From the IMG/VR virus record IMGVR_UViG_2681813261_000023: a stretch of 4,182 bases of DNA, one strand, 5' to 3'. The translations under genes and the position numbers were made by a program. Of this stretch, positions 1 to 4,182 are shown one piece after another; the stretch's first letter is position 1; each line of letters begins with the position of its first letter. The DNA is from a virus (taxonomy: Duplodnaviria; Heunggongvirae; Uroviricota; Caudoviricetes). A model generated the notes under the pieces. That model saw only the letters and a list, made by a program, of their open reading frames with translations. It was not told the origin of the DNA and did no database searches.

Positions 1-135
1 GCAAACATGGGCTGGCAAAAGTGTAGCGGTATTAAGCGCAGCTATTTACATCAGGATCTAAACTAAAGTATTCTTCAGGTGATAAGCCTCTTTTGTTAAC
101 CATCTTACAAAAGTACTTTAATTCGATATCACCTC

Positions 136-435
136 TTACTTTTTTTCTACTTCATCTACAGGTTTCGCAGTATTGATTAAAGCAATAATTGCTGAGTAAA
201 TTTCATTCTGGATTACAAAATCAATAGAGTTAACATTAATTCGTCCATCAATATCTTCTTCTGCGAAGATAGGATCACCATTTTCATCTTTTACACATAG
301 GATTAGAGTTTTAGCCACATCAGTGCATTTCTGGAAATCCTGACCATTTGGACGATGAATAAAGATGATTTCACCCATTACTTCATGTGGTTTTAATTCT
401 GGTTGTAGTTTTTTCTTCAATTCGTTTAAATTCAT
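136..435 (-). CDS. hypothetical acidic protein (99 aa); position after the tube gene suggests a tail assembly chaperone-like protein
   Basis: The ORF track frame 136..447 begins at a TTG. GGAG (445..442) sits 6 nt upstream of ATG 435..433 and is too close to ATG 441, so start 435 is preferred (MNLNELKKKLQ...). The protein is small, Glu/Asp-rich, and its last sense codons form an A_AAA_AAG heptamer. No family motif recognised by eye. Confidence 0.6.
   Translation of the reverse strand: MNLNELKKKLQPELKPHEVMGEIIFIHRPNGQDFQKCTDVAKTLILCVKDENGDPIFAEEDIDGRINVNSIDFVIQNEIYSAIIALINTAKPVDEVEKK
139..145 (-). promoter_or_regulatory. candidate -1 ribosomal frameshift (or transcriptional slippage) site A_AAA_AAG immediately before the stop codon
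   Basis: The minus-strand reading is GAA AAA AAG TAA (147..136). The heptamer A AAA AAG is in the X_XXY_YYZ register of the zero frame (dnaX-type). The -1 frame continues for 35 codons (VRGDIELKYFCKMVNKRGLSPEEYFSLDPDVNSCA) to TAA at 34..32. Confidence 0.25.
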
Positions 436-445
436 TTTCATCTCC

Positions 446-478
446 AATAAAAAAGGGAAAGTTGAGCACCTTCCCTTT
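446..478 (-). terminator. probable rho-independent terminator/attenuator downstream of the tube-like gene
   Basis: On the minus-strand RNA, AAAGGGAAGGU (478..468) pairs with ACUUUCCCUUU (462..452) as an 11-bp stem with one G-U pair around the loop GCUCA. It is immediately followed by UUUAUU (451..446). It starts 8 nt after the TAA stop (489..487) and is directly followed by GGAG and the next start codon. Confidence 0.45.
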
Positions 479-486
479 ATTTATTA

Positions 487-966
487 TTATTCGCCCGATT
501 CTGGTTTTGGAGTAATCAGACCTGAATCAATTGCTTCACCATCAACTGCAAGGGTGAAAGTCTTAGTTACTACTTCATCTTTATCACCACCGATAGTGGT
601 ACTTGAAACAAAGCAGGTATAAATTACAAAGAAACCTTCTTTTTTAGTTGCATCGGTAAAATAGCTTAGTTTTACCTGACAACGTTTCTGATCGTCTGCA
701 AGTTGTTCTAAATTCTGATGTACTGCATTATCTGGTAAGTAGTTAACTGCAAGAGAAATGTCCGGGATTGACTTAGTACCCAATAGCTTACGATCATAAG
801 CATTATTGAATGTTTTTACGCTAATTACAGTACTTTCAAAGCCTGAAGTACTGAAGGTGTTTACCTCTGGTACTTCTACAAAGTCAGTAGCAACTGTTTT
901 ACCAGCACTTGAACCTACTTCTACAGTAAGGTTAGCACCGGAAAAAATATCCATAGCCATAGCCAT
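487..966 (-). CDS. major tail (tube) protein-like protein, 159 aa
   Basis: ORF with ATG 966..964 preceded by AAGGA (980..976) at 9-nt spacing. The N-terminus has three ATGs (MAMAMDIFSG); the third (954..952) matches the start of the paralogue. Sequence patterns (N-terminal beta-strand LTVEV, SLAVNYLPDN...HQNLEQL..., VVTKTFTLAV) resemble, from memory, the N-domain of lambda gpV-type siphovirus tail tube proteins. Size is also appropriate for a tube protein. Confidence 0.75.
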   Translation of the reverse strand: MAMAMDIFSGANLTVEVGSSAGKTVATDFVEVPEVNTFSTSGFESTVISVKTFNNAYDRKLLGTKSIPDISLAVNYLPDNAVHQNLEQLADDQKRCQVKLSYFTDATKKEGFFVIYTCFVSSTTIGGDKDEVVTKTFTLAVDGEAIDSGLITPKPESGE

Positions 967-979
967 AGTTTTATATCCT

Positions 980-1016
980 TATAAGAAAATTTTATTGGAG
1001 TGAATCCGTTCACCCC
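980..1016 (-). terminator. hairpin followed by a U-rich tract between the fiber gene and the tube-like gene (weak intrinsic terminator or RNA processing/stability element)
   Basis: On the minus-strand RNA, GGGGUGAA (1016..1009) pairs with UUCACUCC (1004..997) as an 8-bp stem with one G-U pair around the tetraloop CGGA. It is followed by AAUAAAAUUUUCUU. The U-tract does not abut the stem, hence low confidence. Confidence 0.3.
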
Positions 1017-1024
1017 GTTTATAT

Positions 1025-3676
1025 TTATTTATTATTTAATAGCTGTTGTACTAAATCTTTTAGCTGATTAATTTCTTCTTGTTGGGCTTGAATAGCTCCC
1101 ATCAAGTCCATCACTATTGGATTTAAATCAACACGTGGATGATCACGAGTGACAATCTCCCCTTCTATTTCAACTGTTTCTTCATCATGCTTAATGTACT
1201 GCGGAGCAGTCAACTCAGCATCTTCGGCGATAACACCAAACCTAACCCTTTCTTGTTCATCATCCTTGTAGATAAACGTTACTAAATCTTGTGACATTAT
1301 CCGATCTAATGCTTCAACTGGATTTGCTGGAGTTATGTCTCTTTTAAACTCACGACCTGATGTACCTTGAGCTTGCATTACTAACCATCCAAACCATGTT
1401 GTACCGTTCCCGCCTCGTACTCTTAAAGTACCACCACCGTCTATCTGAAGCTGAGAGCGATTTGCCCCTGGGTGTCTTTGCATGTGCAATAAAGGGGAAT
1501 ATTTTTCACTATAGTTAATACCTGAGTCACCTGGCCCTGCATACATACCGTTAAAGGTGATGGTATTGGCATCTGTCGGTCCCGAAACAGCGGTATTAGT
1601 CATCCATCCTGATTGAACATCAGTTAGGATCGTTCCAGTCGGCCCTTTTAGCCCCCATAGTTTATCCTCTGCACCATTTTCAGAAATAAAAAGGGTGAGA
1701 TCAGCCTGTCCAGTCTGTCCCATCGTTTTACCAACCCGAAAACCACCAGATATTTCAGTTGATGTACCAATGTTGCATATCGAACGAATACGCCCTCCAG
1801 TTACATAACTACCAATTGCCGTAGAGGAAGGGGAAGAAGCAATAACATCCCATTGAGGACTAACTGAAGTACGACTACTCAGCAAGTTTTCAACCCAGCG
1901 TTTGGTAGTCGCGTCAGAATCAGAGACAGGATCTCCTGCTAAAGAAGTTGCACCCGTAGGACGAATCGCAGGCCATAACTCAGCCTGAGTCTTAACACCA
2001 GTACCGCCCTGCGGAATTGCTAATGCTTTCCAGCCAGTGAAAGCACCCGCAATATATGTAGCTGAACCCCATTGCCCTCCATCATAAACCACTAATGCAG
2101 CGGAAGAATCAGCGGATTTAATAGTTGTTAAATTACTACCTTGATTAAAGCGATCCACCTGAAAGTTTAGGCGAGCACTCAAAGCATCTGTAGCCCCTGT
2201 CCCCCCCTGACCTATACCTAAAGCAATCCATCCAGTACCAGTACTTGCACCCCATGCCCCGTTATCCTGAATTCGGATACGGTTAGTCAGGTCATTACTC
2301 ATCAGATCGGTGTACGTAGCACCCTGAGTCAAACGGTTCACCTGTAGGTTAGTACGTGCTGTAGAGAGACTGGATAGATCAGAAAGGTTACTCGCTTTCT
2401 TCATGGAAGCGGAATCAAGGGAAGTAATACTGTCAGCTAAAGCCGTTACCTCTGCATCTACTTCATCCATTGAGTAAACAGCAAGGTTAATACGTGCTTC
2501 TTCCACGTCCCCCAGATCACTTAGATTACCTGCTATCGTAAGCTGGGCATCATCTGTAACCTTCCCTAAGCCAACATCAGTACTGGTAAGTACTACATCC
2601 TCACTGAGTACATGACCGTTGACCATACGTGTATCAGGTACTGAACCTGTATCTTCACTACTCAGTACTACATTTTCACTAAGTACATGACCGTTCACTG
2701 TACGCGTGTCAGGTACTGAACCTGTATCTTCACTACTCAGTACTATATCTTCACTGAGTACATGACCATTAACTGTCCGTGTATCTGGTACAGAGCCGGT
2801 ATCAGTACTGGTAAGTACTACATCCTCACTTAGAGGCTTACCATTCACAGTACGTGTATCAGGTACTGAACCTGTATCTTCACTGTTCAGTACTAAATTG
2901 GCCGTGAGTGCATGGCCGTTGATGGTACGTGTAAGGGGTACGTATCGCCCGTCCATCTGTGTAGCGGTATATATGCGTGTCCAGGCGGTTGTAGCGTTCT
3001 TTGCATAGATACTTAGAGTACCCGTCTTTGTCATCGCAAGAGAACTTACAGTAGTGCCATCTACAAGCCCTACTCCCATCAGATCCGCCCCGGCAGGATT
3101 GCCTGCTTGAGATGATGGTACTTTGATGAAGCTGTTACCCGTAGGTACTGATGGTGAGTACTGAGGTACATCCGTAGTGTTCGAACCTAAACCGTAGTCC
3201 CCCTGATAGATTGGCGATAGTGCGTTAATGGTCATTGCACGTGCGATCACATCATGTGGGGCAAAACTGTATGCCTTGGTTACTACTGAACCTTTATCAC
3301 CGTCCAACTTATAAGAGGTGATATAACCATTCACCATCGCATAAGTAATGGTATTTTCATCCTTATTCATCTGGTACTGAATGATGATCTGGAAAAGCTG
3401 CTGAGACTTAGCGGCATTATCCAAGAATTGATGTGTAGGATCATCAGGTAGGTAGTTAACTACAATATCAAATGGTGCTACTGATTTATCAGATAGTAGT
3501 ACTGTCCTGTAATCACTATCATACGTTTCAAAATTATTTGCTTCTGAATTTATTGTTAAGGTTGGAAAAGTATTAATCTGTTTAATTACTACATTGCCTG
3601 CTCCCTGTGGTGTTCTGTTACCAATATCAGCATTATACTGTACTGATAATTCTCTTCCTGAGAAAATATCACTCAT
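1025..3676 (-). CDS. tail fiber-like protein (883 aa) with N-terminal tail-tube-like domain, tandem fiber repeats and C-terminal intramolecular chaperone (peptidase S74-like) domain
   Basis: Uninterrupted 2,652-nt ORF. ATG 3676..3674 is preceded by AAGGA (3689..3685) at 8-nt spacing. Residues 1-145 align at about 30% identity with the adjacent 159-aa protein. Residues 249-373 are five tandem 25-aa repeats (TRTVNGHVLSEDVVLSSEDTGSVPD-like). Residues 374-575 carry recurring GGTG...AR.NL.V motifs typical of phage fiber shafts. Residues 771-883 (GTSGREFKRDITP...FGVIAEDAE...VDLNPIVMDLMGAIQAQQEEINQLK) match the pattern I recall for the self-cleaving C-terminal chaperone of tailspikes and fibers (Ser, then Lys five residues later, ...FGVIAqe..., C-terminal helical tail). 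Confidence 0.85.
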   Translation of the reverse strand: MSDIFSGRELSVQYNADIGNRTPQGAGNVVIKQINTFPTLTINSEANNFETYDSDYRTVLLSDKSVAPFDIVVNYLPDDPTHQFLDNAAKSQQLFQIIIQYQMNKDENTITYAMVNGYITSYKLDGDKGSVVTKAYSFAPHDVIARAMTINALSPIYQGDYGLGSNTTDVPQYSPSVPTGNSFIKVPSSQAGNPAGADLMGVGLVDGTTVSSLAMTKTGTLSIYAKNATTAWTRIYTATQMDGRYVPLTRTINGHALTANLVLNSEDTGSVPDTRTVNGKPLSEDVVLTSTDTGSVPDTRTVNGHVLSEDIVLSSEDTGSVPDTRTVNGHVLSENVVLSSEDTGSVPDTRMVNGHVLSEDVVLTSTDVGLGKVTDDAQLTIAGNLSDLGDVEEARINLAVYSMDEVDAEVTALADSITSLDSASMKKASNLSDLSSLSTARTNLQVNRLTQGATYTDLMSNDLTNRIRIQDNGAWGASTGTGWIALGIGQGGTGATDALSARLNFQVDRFNQGSNLTTIKSADSSAALVVYDGGQWGSATYIAGAFTGWKALAIPQGGTGVKTQAELWPAIRPTGATSLAGDPVSDSDATTKRWVENLLSSRTSVSPQWDVIASSPSSTAIGSYVTGGRIRSICNIGTSTEISGGFRVGKTMGQTGQADLTLFISENGAEDKLWGLKGPTGTILTDVQSGWMTNTAVSGPTDANTITFNGMYAGPGDSGINYSEKYSPLLHMQRHPGANRSQLQIDGGGTLRVRGGNGTTWFGWLVMQAQGTSGREFKRDITPANPVEALDRIMSQDLVTFIYKDDEQERVRFGVIAEDAELTAPQYIKHDEETVEIEGEIVTRDHPRVDLNPIVMDLMGAIQAQQEEINQLKDLVQQLLNNK
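1028..1357 (-). other. C-terminal intramolecular chaperone / autoproteolytic domain (aa 774-883), peptidase S74-like
   Basis: The putative catalytic Ser773 (TCA, 1360..1358) and Lys778 (AAA, 1345..1343) have the Ser-x4-Lys spacing I recall for endosialidase-type chaperone domains. They are followed by ITP...ALD...FIYKDD...RFGVIAEDAE...VDLNPIV..L.GAIQA.QEEINQLK, resembling the family consensus. Confidence 0.7.
1952..2266 (-). repeat. divergent internal duplication of a Gly/Trp-rich GGTG module (aa 471-575)
   Basis: The peptide segments DNGAWGASTGTGWIALGIGQGGTGATDALSARLNF and DGGQWGSATYIAGAFTGWKALAIPQGGTGVKTQAELWPAI align. DNA similarity is low, so this is an old duplication seen at protein level only. 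Confidence 0.45.
2558..2932 (-). repeat. five in-frame tandem repeats of 75 bp (25 aa) inside the fiber gene
   Basis: A 40-nt block (gtatcaggtactgaacctgtatcttcactactcagtacta) recurs on the plus strand at about 2631, 2706 and 2857, with a diverged copy at 2781. A second block (tactggtaagtactacatcctcact) recurs at 2581 and 2806, i.e. 3 x 75 apart. The encoded peptide units are residues 249-273, 274-298, 299-323, 324-348 and 349-373. Confidence 0.9.
3242..3676 (-). other. N-terminal tail-tube-like domain of the 883-aa protein (aa 1-145), paralogous to the 159-aa protein
   Basis: Pairwise alignment by eye: MSDIFSGRELSV vs MDIFSGANLTV; NTF; Y..LL.KS.PD; VNYLPDD vs VNYLPDN; HQ.L; GDKGSVVTKAYSFA vs GDKDEVVTKTFTLA. 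The VNYLPD codons are nearly identical at DNA level (3443..3460 vs 730..747, 16 of 18 nt). Confidence 0.65.
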
Positions 3677-3693
3677 CCTTTATATCCTTTTAG

Positions 3694-4086
3694 TTATCTT
3701 GTCTTTTCCGTAACTTGAATATTTATCGTAAAGGATAGGGAAACCGAGCCAGTTATAGGATCTGTGACAATATCGGATTGTTCATAAGAACACGAAAGCA
3801 TTATTAAACCTGCATCACTGAATGCTGAAGTTTTCTCTTTATCAAAAGTACTAATAATCTGATCATAAGTGATGGATGGGGCTGTATTACCTGATTCTGG
3901 TTTAGGGGAAATCAGATACTGAATTGCAAAGTTACCTGCCCGGCGTTCATTGCTGAAACTTAAACTCGTTAATGAGTAATCAAAAGCAATTTGTTCAAAT
4001 ACATCAACATCACGTGATACTGTCAGATTCTTAGTAGCATTGATAAGCTGCTTCATCGTATTCCGTACTTTTTGTACTAACATCAT
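3694..4086 (-). CDS. hypothetical small protein (130 aa); size and position suggest a tail terminator / tail completion-type protein
   Basis: The ORF track gives an open frame 3694..4158 (-) whose first codon is GTG at 4158 with no Shine-Dalgarno. The ATG at 4086..4084 is preceded by AGAGGA (4100..4095) at 8-nt spacing, so the 130-aa form MMLVQKVRNT... is preferred. Stop TAA 3696..3694 lies 17 nt upstream of the next start. No family motif recognised by eye; function is inferred only from size and position immediately upstream of the tube-like genes. Confidence 0.55.
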   Translation of the reverse strand: MMLVQKVRNTMKQLINATKNLTVSRDVDVFEQIAFDYSLTSLSFSNERRAGNFAIQYLISPKPESGNTAPSITYDQIISTFDKEKTSAFSDAGLIMLSCSYEQSDIVTDPITGSVSLSFTINIQVTEKTR

Positions 4087-4182
4087 ATTAGTAGTCCTCT
4101 GCAAATGAAGCACCAGCAGAATGGATTTGCCCCTATATTTCCAGACATCTGTTATCACTTAACCCATTACAAGCCCGCTGCC

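What the first reader, a model, noticed from the sequence alone, without database searches (positions are those of the whole stretch)
32..147. A_AAA_AAG slippery heptamer abutting the stop codon of the 99-aa gene
The last sense codons of the gene are GAA AAA AAG, giving a canonical X_XXY_YYZ heptamer in the correct register, then TAA. Tail assembly chaperone genes, which usually follow the tube gene in lambda-like tails, typically use a programmed -1 frameshift near their 3-prime end to make a longer fusion product. Here the -1 frame runs only 35 codons to a stop at 34..32, far shorter than a typical T-like extension. The site may be a minimal or degenerate frameshift, a transcriptional-slippage site at the seven-A run, or coincidental in an AT-rich genome.
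Basis: partly seen in the sequence, partly recalled or inferred. Interest (0 to 1): 0.5.

Follow-up and report, generated by a model that had tools for sequence, protein, structure and literature searches.

The report
IS-truncated phage tail-chaperone frameshift site
The slippery A AAA AAG at the end of this 99-codon gene is a conserved -1 frameshift signal of a phage tail assembly chaperone (the lambda G/GT type), and its extension is short here only because an IS630-family insertion sequence has cut the downstream reading frame in a decayed prophage.

Summary
On the minus strand, GAA AAA AAG TAA lies at window 147..136, the heptamer at 145..139 is in X_XXY_YYZ register, and the -1 frame runs 35 codons to TAA at 34..32.

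The extension is short because the locus is broken. Window 47..4121 is 99.8% identical to prophage copies with an intact 132-codon extension. Window 1..46 is the terminal inverted repeat of an IS630-family element, inserted at a TA (47..48). Only 31 extension codons are authentic. The last four (NSCA) and the stop are IS sequence. The other window end (4122..4182) is IS2.

A hairpin starts 4-5 nt after the heptamer. It is more stable than synonymous recodings (z -3.2), but it is lineage-specific, not family-wide.

Verdict: an ordinary G/GT-type programmed frameshift, unannotated in this prophage family and inactivated here by an IS.

The parts
136..435 (-). Tail assembly chaperone gene (G-like), 99 aa, ending ...DEVEKK*. 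A GGAG Shine-Dalgarno lies 6 nt upstream of the ATG at 435.
139..145 (-). Slippery heptamer A_AAA_AAG in X_XXY_YYZ register. P-site codon AAA is 144..142 and A-site codon AAG is 141..139.
   Evidence: It is conserved as A_AAA_AAG (42) or A_AAA_AAA (17) in 59 of 59 distinct contexts from 66 loci. AAG makes up 71% at this Lys codon against 16% elsewhere in the same genes.
136..138 (-). Zero-frame stop codon TAA immediately 3' of the heptamer.
   Evidence: TAA is present in 59 of 59 distinct contexts, although TGA would be synonymous in the -1 frame (GTG = Val).
47..139 (-). Authentic remnant of the -1 frame T extension: 31 codons, VRGDIELKYFCKMVNKRGLSPEEYFSLDPDV. The last codon GTA uses the TA target dinucleotide at 47..48.
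   Evidence: It is identical to the first 31 codons of the 132-codon extension in L011-L013. The extension is conserved at protein level in 57 distinct variants.
32..46 (-). Non-authentic tail of the -1 ORF (NSCA plus stop TAA at 34..32), encoded by IS sequence.
   Evidence: Homology to the intact prophage ends at window 47, and homology to the IS630-family end begins at window 48.
77..134 (-). Predicted extended hairpin. The outer stem AGGUGAUA (134..127) pairs with UAUCACCU (84..77). An inner stem CUUUUGU (113..107) pairs with ACAAAAG (96..90). It starts 4-5 nt 3' of the heptamer and lies entirely in retained phage sequence.
   Evidence: Searches give the structure. The MFE of the 70 nt after the heptamer is -15.2 kcal/mol, z -3.26 against dinucleotide shuffles and z -3.16 against synonymous recoding, with 0 of 150 recodings as stable (L011 = same sequence). 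It is not conserved in one register family-wide.
1..46 (+). Right end of an IS630-family insertion sequence. It comprises the last codons of the transposase (...KHGLAKV, stop TAG at 24..26) plus the terminal inverted repeat ...GCGCAGCTATT. The TA target is 47..48.
   Evidence: There are 0 mismatches to L003 5529-5576, which overlaps the 3' end of an annotated IS630 family transposase. In L003 the element has 20-nt inverted repeats and is flanked C-TA...TA-G. The 48-mer is found in 769 of 5426 E. coli genomes, where it is annotated IS630 family transposase.
4122..4182 (-). End of IS2 (IS3 family), inserted in the 3' end of the upstream 107-aa gene. It marks the other break of the prophage fragment.
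   Evidence: 100% matches to IS2 in many records. Prophage homology starts at window 4121.
487..966 (-). Major tail tube gene (159 aa), directly upstream of the chaperone gene.
   Evidence: PF08813 Phage_tail_3 E 2.8e-8, above the cut-off. phrog_158 major tail protein E 4.6e-20.

Best explanation
Window 136..435 (minus strand) encodes the tail assembly chaperone of a siphovirus-type prophage, the counterpart of lambda gpG. In the intact phage most ribosomes stop at UAA and make the 99-aa chaperone. A minority slip back one base on A_AAA_AAG. This could be tandem slippage of the two tRNA-Lys, or slippage of the P-site tRNA-Lys from AAG to AAA while the slowly decoded UAA sits in the A site. Both routes give the same peptide, ...EKK-VRGD.... 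The slipped ribosomes continue for about 132 codons in the -1 frame and make a G-T fusion of about 231 aa. By analogy with lambda, its G part binds the tape measure protein and its T part recruits the tube protein. The adjacent stop codon and, in this lineage, a hairpin starting 4-5 nt downstream are the likely stimulators. In the genome sampled here the system is dead. An IS630-family element inserted at a TA 31 codons into the T frame, so any frameshift product would be a 134-aa G-T' stub ending in four IS-encoded residues. An IS2 interrupts the module on the other side.

Shown here: sequence, register, conservation, synteny, fold and IS junctions. Inferred: that frameshifting actually occurs, its efficiency, and the roles of the stop codon and the hairpin.

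For: 2. Synteny in intact copies: the order is tube, 99-aa gene, -1 ORF, then a 737-aa tape measure protein (phrog_13674, E 5e-86).

3. Conservation: 66 of 68 loci from genome and viral collections, down to 41% protein identity, end in GAAAAAAA(G/A)TAA and have a -1 ORF of 126-135 codons, with one of 99. In 59 distinct contexts GAA, AAA and TAA are invariant while neighbouring codons vary freely; the codon before GAA has 10 different forms. The background usage of AAA is 84% and of GAA 85%, yet the Z-position Lys is AAG in 71%.

4. The -1 frame opens 0-3 codons upstream of the AAA AAA in 52 of 58 contexts, and exactly at it (TGA AAA AAA) in 29. The only possible shift window is therefore the heptamer.

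5. The T extension is conserved as protein from its very first codons, upstream of the internal Met. That Met is absent in one clade (L010, L067, L068, L071).

6. Truncation: window 47..4121 is 99.83% identical to L012/L013, which have the full extension. The window then switches to the IS630-family inverted repeat at a TA.

7. Structure: the 70 nt after the heptamer fold better than synonymous recodings (z -3.16 for this lineage; family mean -1.27 against -0.31 in a control region of the T ORF) and better than dinucleotide shuffles.

8. Established knowledge: A_AAA_AAG is the most shift-prone -1 heptamer in E. coli, and low-level G-T frameshifting is widely conserved in long-tailed phages (review PMC5009743).
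Against: No protein or reporter data exist for this family, so frameshifting is inferred only. The T extension matches no PHROG or Pfam family. No annotated fusion of about 231 aa was found in the protein collection. No single RNA structure is conserved across the family: RNAalifold found none, and the window's hairpin register gives 55-61% of cells paired against 52-60% in shuffles. About 14% of lineages show no excess folding. There is no upstream Shine-Dalgarno-like stimulator. The related sequences are phylogenetically non-independent, so the invariance counts overstate the statistical weight. One genome (L009 = L064) has the A run one base shorter, which puts T in the +1 frame.
Confidence: 0.85

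Rival explanations
1. Transcriptional slippage: RNA polymerase stutters on the A7 run (A8 in some relatives) and inserts one extra A. A fraction of mRNAs then encodes G-T in a single frame, and the ribosome does not shift.
For: The site is a homopolymeric A7/A8 run. One extra A would give exactly the same protein...EKKVRGD..., so peptide data cannot discriminate. Transcriptional slippage is used by some IS elements and by Shigella type III secretion genes (PMC5009743).
Against: None of 59 distinct contexts has a run longer than 8 A. From my own knowledge, productive bacterial slippage sites are usually 9 or more. Selection seems to act on the heptamer form. The last base is G in 71% of contexts against a 16% background for AAG, which shortens the run and is the opposite of what RNA polymerase slippage would favour. 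It does give the heptamer known to be shiftiest for E. coli ribosomes (PMC5009743). The register is strictly kept. The excess RNA structure lies downstream; from my own knowledge, a hairpin that stimulates polymerase slippage would be expected upstream in the nascent RNA.
Confidence: 0.08
2. There is no recoding. T is an independent gene translated from the internal ATG (MVNKRGL..., window 103..101), as gene callers annotate it (120 aa), and the heptamer is a by-product of a conserved Glu-Lys-Lys C-terminus.
For: Gene callers call a separate 120-aa ORF in all intact copies. The C-terminal EKK is conserved as protein. AAA and GAA are the preferred codons anyway, at 84-85%.
Against: No Shine-Dalgarno lies at a usable distance from that ATG; the GAGGTGAT is 27-34 nt upstream. 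The Met is replaced by Leu in one clade (L010, L067, L068, L071). The 12 codons upstream of the Met are conserved in the -1 frame and open right from the heptamer, often bounded by a -1 frame TGA immediately before it. The final Lys codon shows reversed codon preference, 71% AAG. The layout of chaperone, -1 ORF and tape measure gene is the canonical G/GT layout (PMC5009743).
Confidence: 0.05
3. A minimal, functional short extension: the 35-codon -1 product is the intended product in this organism.
For: A short extension is what is present in this window.
Against: The last 4 codons and the stop are IS630-family sequence. All 66 relatives with the site, including 99.8%-identical copies, have about 130 codons apart from one of 99. 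The same module is also hit by IS2, and the contig is unique in carrying this junction.
Confidence: 0.02

Closest known systems
Bacteriophage lambda G / G-T tail assembly chaperone -1 programmed frameshift (Levin, Hendrix & Casjens 1993; Xu, Hendrix & Duda 2004, 2013, 2014; as reviewed in PMC5009743)
   Same: The gene order is the same: tube gene, small chaperone gene, overlapping -1 ORF without its own start, then the tape measure gene. A slippery heptamer lies at the 3' end of the chaperone gene, and the extension is of similar size (about 130 codons). The presumed outcome is also the same, a minor fusion product alongside a major short product.
   Different: The heptamer is A_AAA_AAG or A_AAA_AAA rather than lambda's G_GGA_AAG (the lambda heptamer is from my own knowledge). 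The heptamer abuts the zero-frame stop, so the G/T overlap is essentially just the heptamer. There is no detectable sequence similarity of the T part to any catalogued family. In this window the T frame is destroyed by an IS.
HK97 tail assembly chaperone (PDB 2OB9)
   Different: The relation is by fold only, and the sequence families differ (phrog_344, with weak PF16459).
E. coli dnaX gamma/tau -1 frameshift
   Same: It uses the same heptamer, A_AAA_AAG, decoded by the single tRNA-Lys (mnm5s2U34), with a hairpin a few nucleotides downstream (PMC5009743).
   Different: dnaX also has an upstream Shine-Dalgarno-like stimulator, which is absent here. In dnaX the shift leads to early termination and a shorter product at about 50% efficiency. 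Here the shift bypasses the stop and makes a longer product, presumably at low efficiency.
'Shifty stop' frameshifting (Weiss et al. 1987, cited in PMC5009743)
   Same: A stop codon directly 3' of a slippery run can promote P-site tRNA slippage. Here UAA follows the heptamer in 59 of 59 contexts.
   Different: Whether the stop contributes here is untested. The heptamer can also support ordinary tandem slippage one codon earlier.

Membership tests
Lambda-type G/G-T tail assembly chaperone frameshift | A small chaperone gene located between the major tail tube gene and the tape measure gene | tested here: met
   The tube gene (PF08813, phrog_158) lies directly upstream in the window. In 99.8%-identical intact copies the tape measure gene (phrog_13674, E 5e-86) follows the -1 ORF. 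In the window itself the tape measure side is missing because of the IS.
Lambda-type G/G-T tail assembly chaperone frameshift | The protein is a tail assembly chaperone by homology or fold | tested here: met
Lambda-type G/G-T tail assembly chaperone frameshift | [quoted passage not shown] | tested here: met
   A_AAA_AAG at 145..139, in register.
Lambda-type G/G-T tail assembly chaperone frameshift | An overlapping -1 ORF of about 100-150 codons, without its own start signal, ending at or near the tape measure gene start | tested here: not met
   In this window there are only 31 authentic codons before the IS630-family junction. The feature is met in 65 of 66 relatives with the site, at 126-135 codons. 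In L012 the extension ends at 6695, overlapping the tape measure start at 6685. The window is thus a disrupted member.
Lambda-type G/G-T tail assembly chaperone frameshift | The slippery site and the -1 ORF are conserved among relatives beyond what protein coding requires | tested here: met
   GAA, AAA and TAA are invariant in 59 of 59 distinct contexts, AAG is enriched at the Z position, and the T extension is conserved as protein.
Lambda-type G/G-T tail assembly chaperone frameshift | A trans-frame G-T protein is actually made, in a low fixed ratio to G, and is needed for tail assembly | not testable with these tools
   This needs a reporter assay, mass spectrometry or genetics.
dnaX-like stimulated A_AAA_AAG cassette | An upstream Shine-Dalgarno-like stimulator about 10 nt 5' of the heptamer | tested here: not met
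   The window has no SD-like motif within 30 nt upstream, and 40 of 51 distinct contexts have none.
dnaX-like stimulated A_AAA_AAG cassette | A stable hairpin about 5-7 nt 3' of the heptamer | tested here: inconclusive
   In this lineage an 8-bp outer stem starts 4-5 nt downstream; the MFE is -15.2 kcal/mol and z is -3.2 against synonymous recodings. Across the family the mean z is -1.27 against -0.31 in a control region. There is no common register.
IS630 family insertion sequence (window 1..46) | Terminal inverted repeats and insertion at a TA with TA duplication | tested here: met
   In L003 the same end belongs to an element of about 1.1 kb with 20-nt inverted repeats, flanked C-TA...TA-G. 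In the window the inverted repeat abuts the TA at 47..48, which is the TA of GTAC in the intact prophage. Only one end is visible, so duplication in this genome cannot be checked.
IS630 family insertion sequence (window 1..46) | Encodes an IS630-family (DDE) transposase | tested here: inconclusive
   Only the last 8 codons are in the window. The identical 48-mer overlaps the 3' end of genes annotated 'IS630 family transposase' in E. coli RefSeq genomes.

The most novel reading that the evidence does not exclude
In this enterobacterial prophage family the recoding signal may be an unusually compact cassette. The G/T overlap is reduced to the heptamer itself, with a -1 frame stop immediately 5' in half the lineages and an invariant zero-frame UAA immediately 3'. 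Under this reading the UAA acts as a 'shifty stop' that drives P-site slippage. It would be helped by fast-evolving, lineage-specific hairpins in which the wobble positions of the T codons pair with each other (pairs 20-71, 23-68 and 26-65 in alignment A2). If so, the efficiency and the G:GT ratio would be tunable by release-factor activity. A still more speculative variant is that the truncated G-T' stub made in this isolate interferes with tail assembly of related infecting phages.
Probability: 0.25. Interest if true: 0.35.

Novelty: new member of a known kind. Interest (0 to 1): 0.25.

Why it matters
The result matters mainly for annotation and for the scan itself. The site is a genuine recoding signal in a widespread prophage family found in Shigella, Escherichia, Enterobacter, Scandinavium, Pluralibacter, Phytobacter, Buttiauxella and others. 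That family has no isolated-phage representative in GenBank phage records. Gene callers annotate its T frame as a separate 120-aa ORF, so the G-T fusion is missing from the gene calls inspected. The case also shows how IS elements in Shigella-type genomes can make a normal programmed frameshift look 'minimal or degenerate'. It does not open a new biological question. G/GT frameshifting and A_AAA_AAG slippage are textbook recoding.

Tried and rejected
1. Megablast and blastn of the window against GenBank phages and complete E. coli genomes matched only the two IS ends; the interior has no DNA match there.

2. tblastn of the G-T fusion against phages gave only one weak T-like hit, 36% identity, in a record labelled Escherichia phage DCP80. 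There is no A-run slippery site in the chaperone-like gene there, and I did not pursue it.

3. PHROGs and Pfam searches on the T extension, both single and with 15 diverse members, found no family.

4. A search for an annotated fused G-T protein found only T-sized proteins of 127 and 132 aa.

5. RNAalifold on 59 sequences gave no consensus structure. The window's MFE structure imposed on the alignment is not better than shuffles: 61.2% of cells paired against 60.1%. An extended outer stem is marginally better, at 55.1% against 52.1% and a covariation score of 0.132 against 0.099.

6. Rfam (E-value mode) on window 1..600 found nothing at the site.

7. Exact search for the phage/IS630 junction in viral and metagenome collections found nothing. 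Whether the IS is a simple insertion or the edge of a deletion therefore stays open.

8. A search for an upstream SD-like stimulator found none.

9. The idea that GAGGTGAT after the stop is a ribosome-binding site for T was rejected. It lies 27-34 nt from the ATG, it is the 5' arm of the hairpin, and it codes for R-G-D in the -1 frame.

Full report
**1. The observation**

All long ORFs of the window are on the minus strand. The ORF at 136..435 (99 aa from ATG; the mechanical ORF from TTG at 447 is 103 aa) ends ...GTA GAT GAA GTA GAA AAA AAG TAA. The heptamer A_AAA_AAG occupies 145..139 in X_XXY_YYZ register and is directly followed by TAA (138..136).

From GTA (139..137) the -1 frame reads VRGDIELKYFCKMVNKRGLSPEEYFSLDPDVNSCA, which is 35 codons, and stops at TAA 34..32.

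On its own the motif is not unusual for this AT-rich window. AAAAAAG occurs 3 times against 1.06 expected, and 14 of 200 shuffles reach 3. There is a single A7 run.

**2. What the window is**

The window is a complete 4182-bp draft contig, CXEK01000243.1 of GCA_001248175.1.

- *IS2 end.* Window 4122..4182 is the end of IS2.
- *IS630-family end.* Window 1..48 matches, with 0 mismatches, the end of an element annotated 'IS630 family transposase' in E. coli. In locus L003 that element is about 1.1 kb, has 20-nt terminal inverted repeats and is flanked C-TA...TA-G.
- *Interior.* The interior has no DNA match in GenBank phages or complete E. coli genomes. It is 99.83% identical over window 47..4121 to prophage contigs L012 and L013. 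The exact 99-aa protein occurs in 573 blocks of the assembly collection, including complete chromosomes such as HE616528.1. Close homologues are labelled Shigella sonnei by NCBI.
- *Junction.* Prophage homology ends at window 47 and IS homology begins at 48. The shared TA (47..48) is the TA of ...GATGTACTCAAT... in the intact copy.

Only the first 31 codons of the -1 ORF are therefore phage sequence. The last four codons (NSCA) and the stop are IS sequence.

**3. What the gene is**

- The upstream neighbour (487..966) is a tail tube protein: PF08813 above its cut-off, and phrog_158 at E 4.6e-20.
- The 99-aa protein hits phrog_344 'tail assembly chaperone' at E 1.6e-6. It hits PF16459 only weakly.
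- In intact copies the -1 ORF is followed, with a small overlap, by a 737-aa tape measure protein (phrog_13674, E 5e-86).

This is the canonical order: tube, G, T, tape measure.

**4. Is the heptamer functional or coincidental?**

*Protein level.* The 43 homologues found share a nearly invariant C-terminus D-E-x-E-K-K. The ten residues before it are highly variable.

*Loci.* I fetched 68 loci from genome and viral collections, down to 41% protein identity. In 66 of them the gene ends in GAAAAAAA(G/A)TAA and the -1 frame is open for 126-135 codons; one has 99.

*The exception.* The two exceptions, L009 and L064, are the same Phytobacter massiliensis JC163 sequence. There the A run is one base shorter, which places T in the +1 frame. 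This could be a homopolymer sequencing error or a real mutation.

*Codon choice.* Among 59 distinct contexts:
- GAA is 59/59, AAA is 59/59 and TAA is 59/59.
- The last Lys is AAG in 42 and AAA in 17.
- The preceding codons vary freely; the codon before GAA takes 10 forms.

Elsewhere in these genes AAG makes up only 16% of Lys codons. Its 71% share at the Z position is a reversal towards the heptamer known to be most shift-prone in E. coli (PMC5009743).

*The shift window.* The -1 frame is closed by a stop 0-3 codons before the AAA AAA in 52 of 58 contexts, and immediately before it in 29. The only place to change frame is therefore the heptamer.

*The T extension.* It is conserved as protein from its first codon (V/I-R/I/K-x-D/S..L.Y..KM[VI]NKRGL[ST]P.E...). 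The internal Met that gene callers use as a start is missing in one clade. It also has no Shine-Dalgarno at a usable distance.

These data rule out coincidence and make independent initiation unlikely. The sequences are related, so the counts are not independent trials. The synonymous variation around the site shows that there has been ample time for change.

**5. Stimulators**

*Upstream.* There is no upstream SD-like element.

*The stop codon.* The zero-frame UAA abuts the heptamer in all contexts. TGA would be synonymous in the -1 frame (GTG = Val) but never occurs. This fits, but does not prove, a contribution of slow termination ('shifty stop'; Weiss et al. 1987, as cited in PMC5009743).

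*The hairpin in this window.* Downstream, the window's sequence folds into an extended hairpin. The outer stem AGGUGAUA/UAUCACCU (134..127 with 84..77) begins 4-5 nt after the heptamer. The IS junction lies 3' of the hairpin, so it is intact here.

*Stability tests on the 70 nt after the heptamer:*

| Comparison | This lineage | Family (58 contexts) | Control |
|---|---|---|---|
| MFE | -15.2 kcal/mol | - | - |
| z against dinucleotide shuffles | -3.26 | mean -1.35, 31% below -2 | about 0 (windows in T/tape measure) |
| z against synonymous recoding of the T codons | -3.16 (0 of 150 as stable) | mean -1.27, 33% below -2, 86% below 0 | -0.31 (control T-ORF region) |

*Across the family.* Several other lineages have stronger stems at the same place but in different registers. 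Examples are CCGGUGA...UCGCCGG with CCACG/CGUGG in L053, at -26.9 kcal/mol, and GGCGAUAACC/GGUUGUCGCC in L006.

There is no single conserved structure. RNAalifold predicts none. The window's structure imposed on the alignment is barely better than shuffles. I therefore rate a stimulatory hairpin as likely in this lineage and suggestive, not demonstrated, for the family. Rfam has nothing at the site.

**6. Mechanism and rivals**

*Best explanation (0.85).* This is a lambda G/GT-type programmed -1 ribosomal frameshift at A_AAA_AAG, inactivated in this genome by the IS630-family insertion. Tandem slippage with AAG in the A site, and P-site slippage with UAA in the A site, give the same product and cannot be separated here.

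*Transcriptional slippage (0.08).* It would also give the same protein. However, no relative has more than 8 A, the preferred terminal G shortens the run, and the excess structure is downstream of the run.

*Independent T initiation with a coincidental heptamer (0.05).* The evidence against this is in section 4.

*A deliberately short extension (0.02).* The IS junction refutes this.

**7. Comparison with known systems and novelty**

The layout matches the conserved tail-chaperone frameshift reviewed in PMC5009743. The heptamer is that of dnaX, but the upstream SD is lacking.

The T part is a sequence orphan. No fused product turned up in the protein collection. Gene callers split G and T. No isolated phage in the GenBank phage set carries this module.

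This is therefore a new, unannotated member of a well-known kind. Its one mildly unusual feature is that the G/T overlap is reduced to the heptamer, which is pressed against an invariant UAA. Interest is low (0.25). The main value is correct annotation, plus the lesson that IS truncation explains the apparently degenerate extension.

Noticed in passing
window 1025..3676 (-): The 883-aa ORF is a fusion-like protein. Its first 140 aa or so are paralogous (31% identity, E 3e-19) to the 159-aa tail tube protein encoded just downstream. They are followed by 25-aa tandem repeats, a fibre-like region (several tail-fibre PHROGs) and a C-terminal Peptidase_S74 intramolecular chaperone domain. A tube-domain::fibre gene sitting next to the plain tube gene suggests tails decorated with fibres along or at the end of the tube.
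   Followed up: partly
window 2589..2895: There is a 75-nt (25-aa) tandem repeat, 4.1 copies at about 80% identity, inside the 883-aa gene. A sister genome (L076) has an 808-aa version, exactly 75 aa shorter, so repeat copy number varies between isolates.
   Followed up: partly
window 452..478 (-): A terminator-like hairpin (11-bp stem AAAGGGAAGGT...ACTTTCCCTTT followed by TTTTATT) lies between the tube gene stop (487) and the chaperone gene start (435). It may be a partial terminator that lowers expression of the chaperone and tape measure genes relative to the tube protein.
   Followed up: no
window 955..966 (-): The tube gene starts ATG GCT ATG GCT ATG GAT (MAMAMD; 159 aa), whereas all other copies have MAMD (157 aa). 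This is a 6-nt tandem duplication. The 159-aa protein is on record in this contig only.
   Followed up: partly
window 4087..4182: IS2 (end at 4122) is inserted 34 nt before the stop of the upstream 107-aa gene and 36 nt upstream of the start of the 130-aa gene (3694..4086). L079 carries an IS-type transposase (PF01527/PF00665) at a similar position between the same two genes. Other copies of the prophage carry further IS insertions, in the tape measure gene in L079 and in the tail-tip (Phage_Tail_Tip) gene in L073, L074 and L077. The prophage is decaying by IS bombardment.
   Followed up: partly
window 639..645 (-): A second AAAAAAG lies inside the tube gene. Its register is AAA AAA G (..T K K E..), not X_XXY_YYZ, so it is not a canonical -1 site.
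   Followed up: partly
L009 / L064 6280..6300 (Phytobacter massiliensis JC163): The A run at the chaperone gene end is A7 followed by T, where the closest relatives have A8. The chaperone frame then runs on for 13 more codons and T lies in the +1 frame. This is either a homopolymer sequencing error or a natural indel at the slippery run.
   Followed up: partly
L082 4073..7739 (record PQ671644.1, 'Escherichia phage DCP80'): A record classified as Straboviridae (T4-like) contains a siphovirus-style tail module: a gene of about 165 aa, one of 119 aa, one of 87 aa and one of 805 aa, all annotated hypothetical. The 87-aa product is 36% identical to the T extension here. The record may be chimeric or may carry an unusual module.
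   Followed up: no
window 77..84 and 127..134 (-): The 3' arm of the hairpin (UAUCACCU) resembles the 3' end of 16S rRNA (the anti-SD region), and the 5' arm (AGGUGAUA) is SD-like. This is probably a by-product of coding R-G-D and L-S-P, but it means an SD-like sequence sits 4 nt after the stop codon.
   Followed up: no
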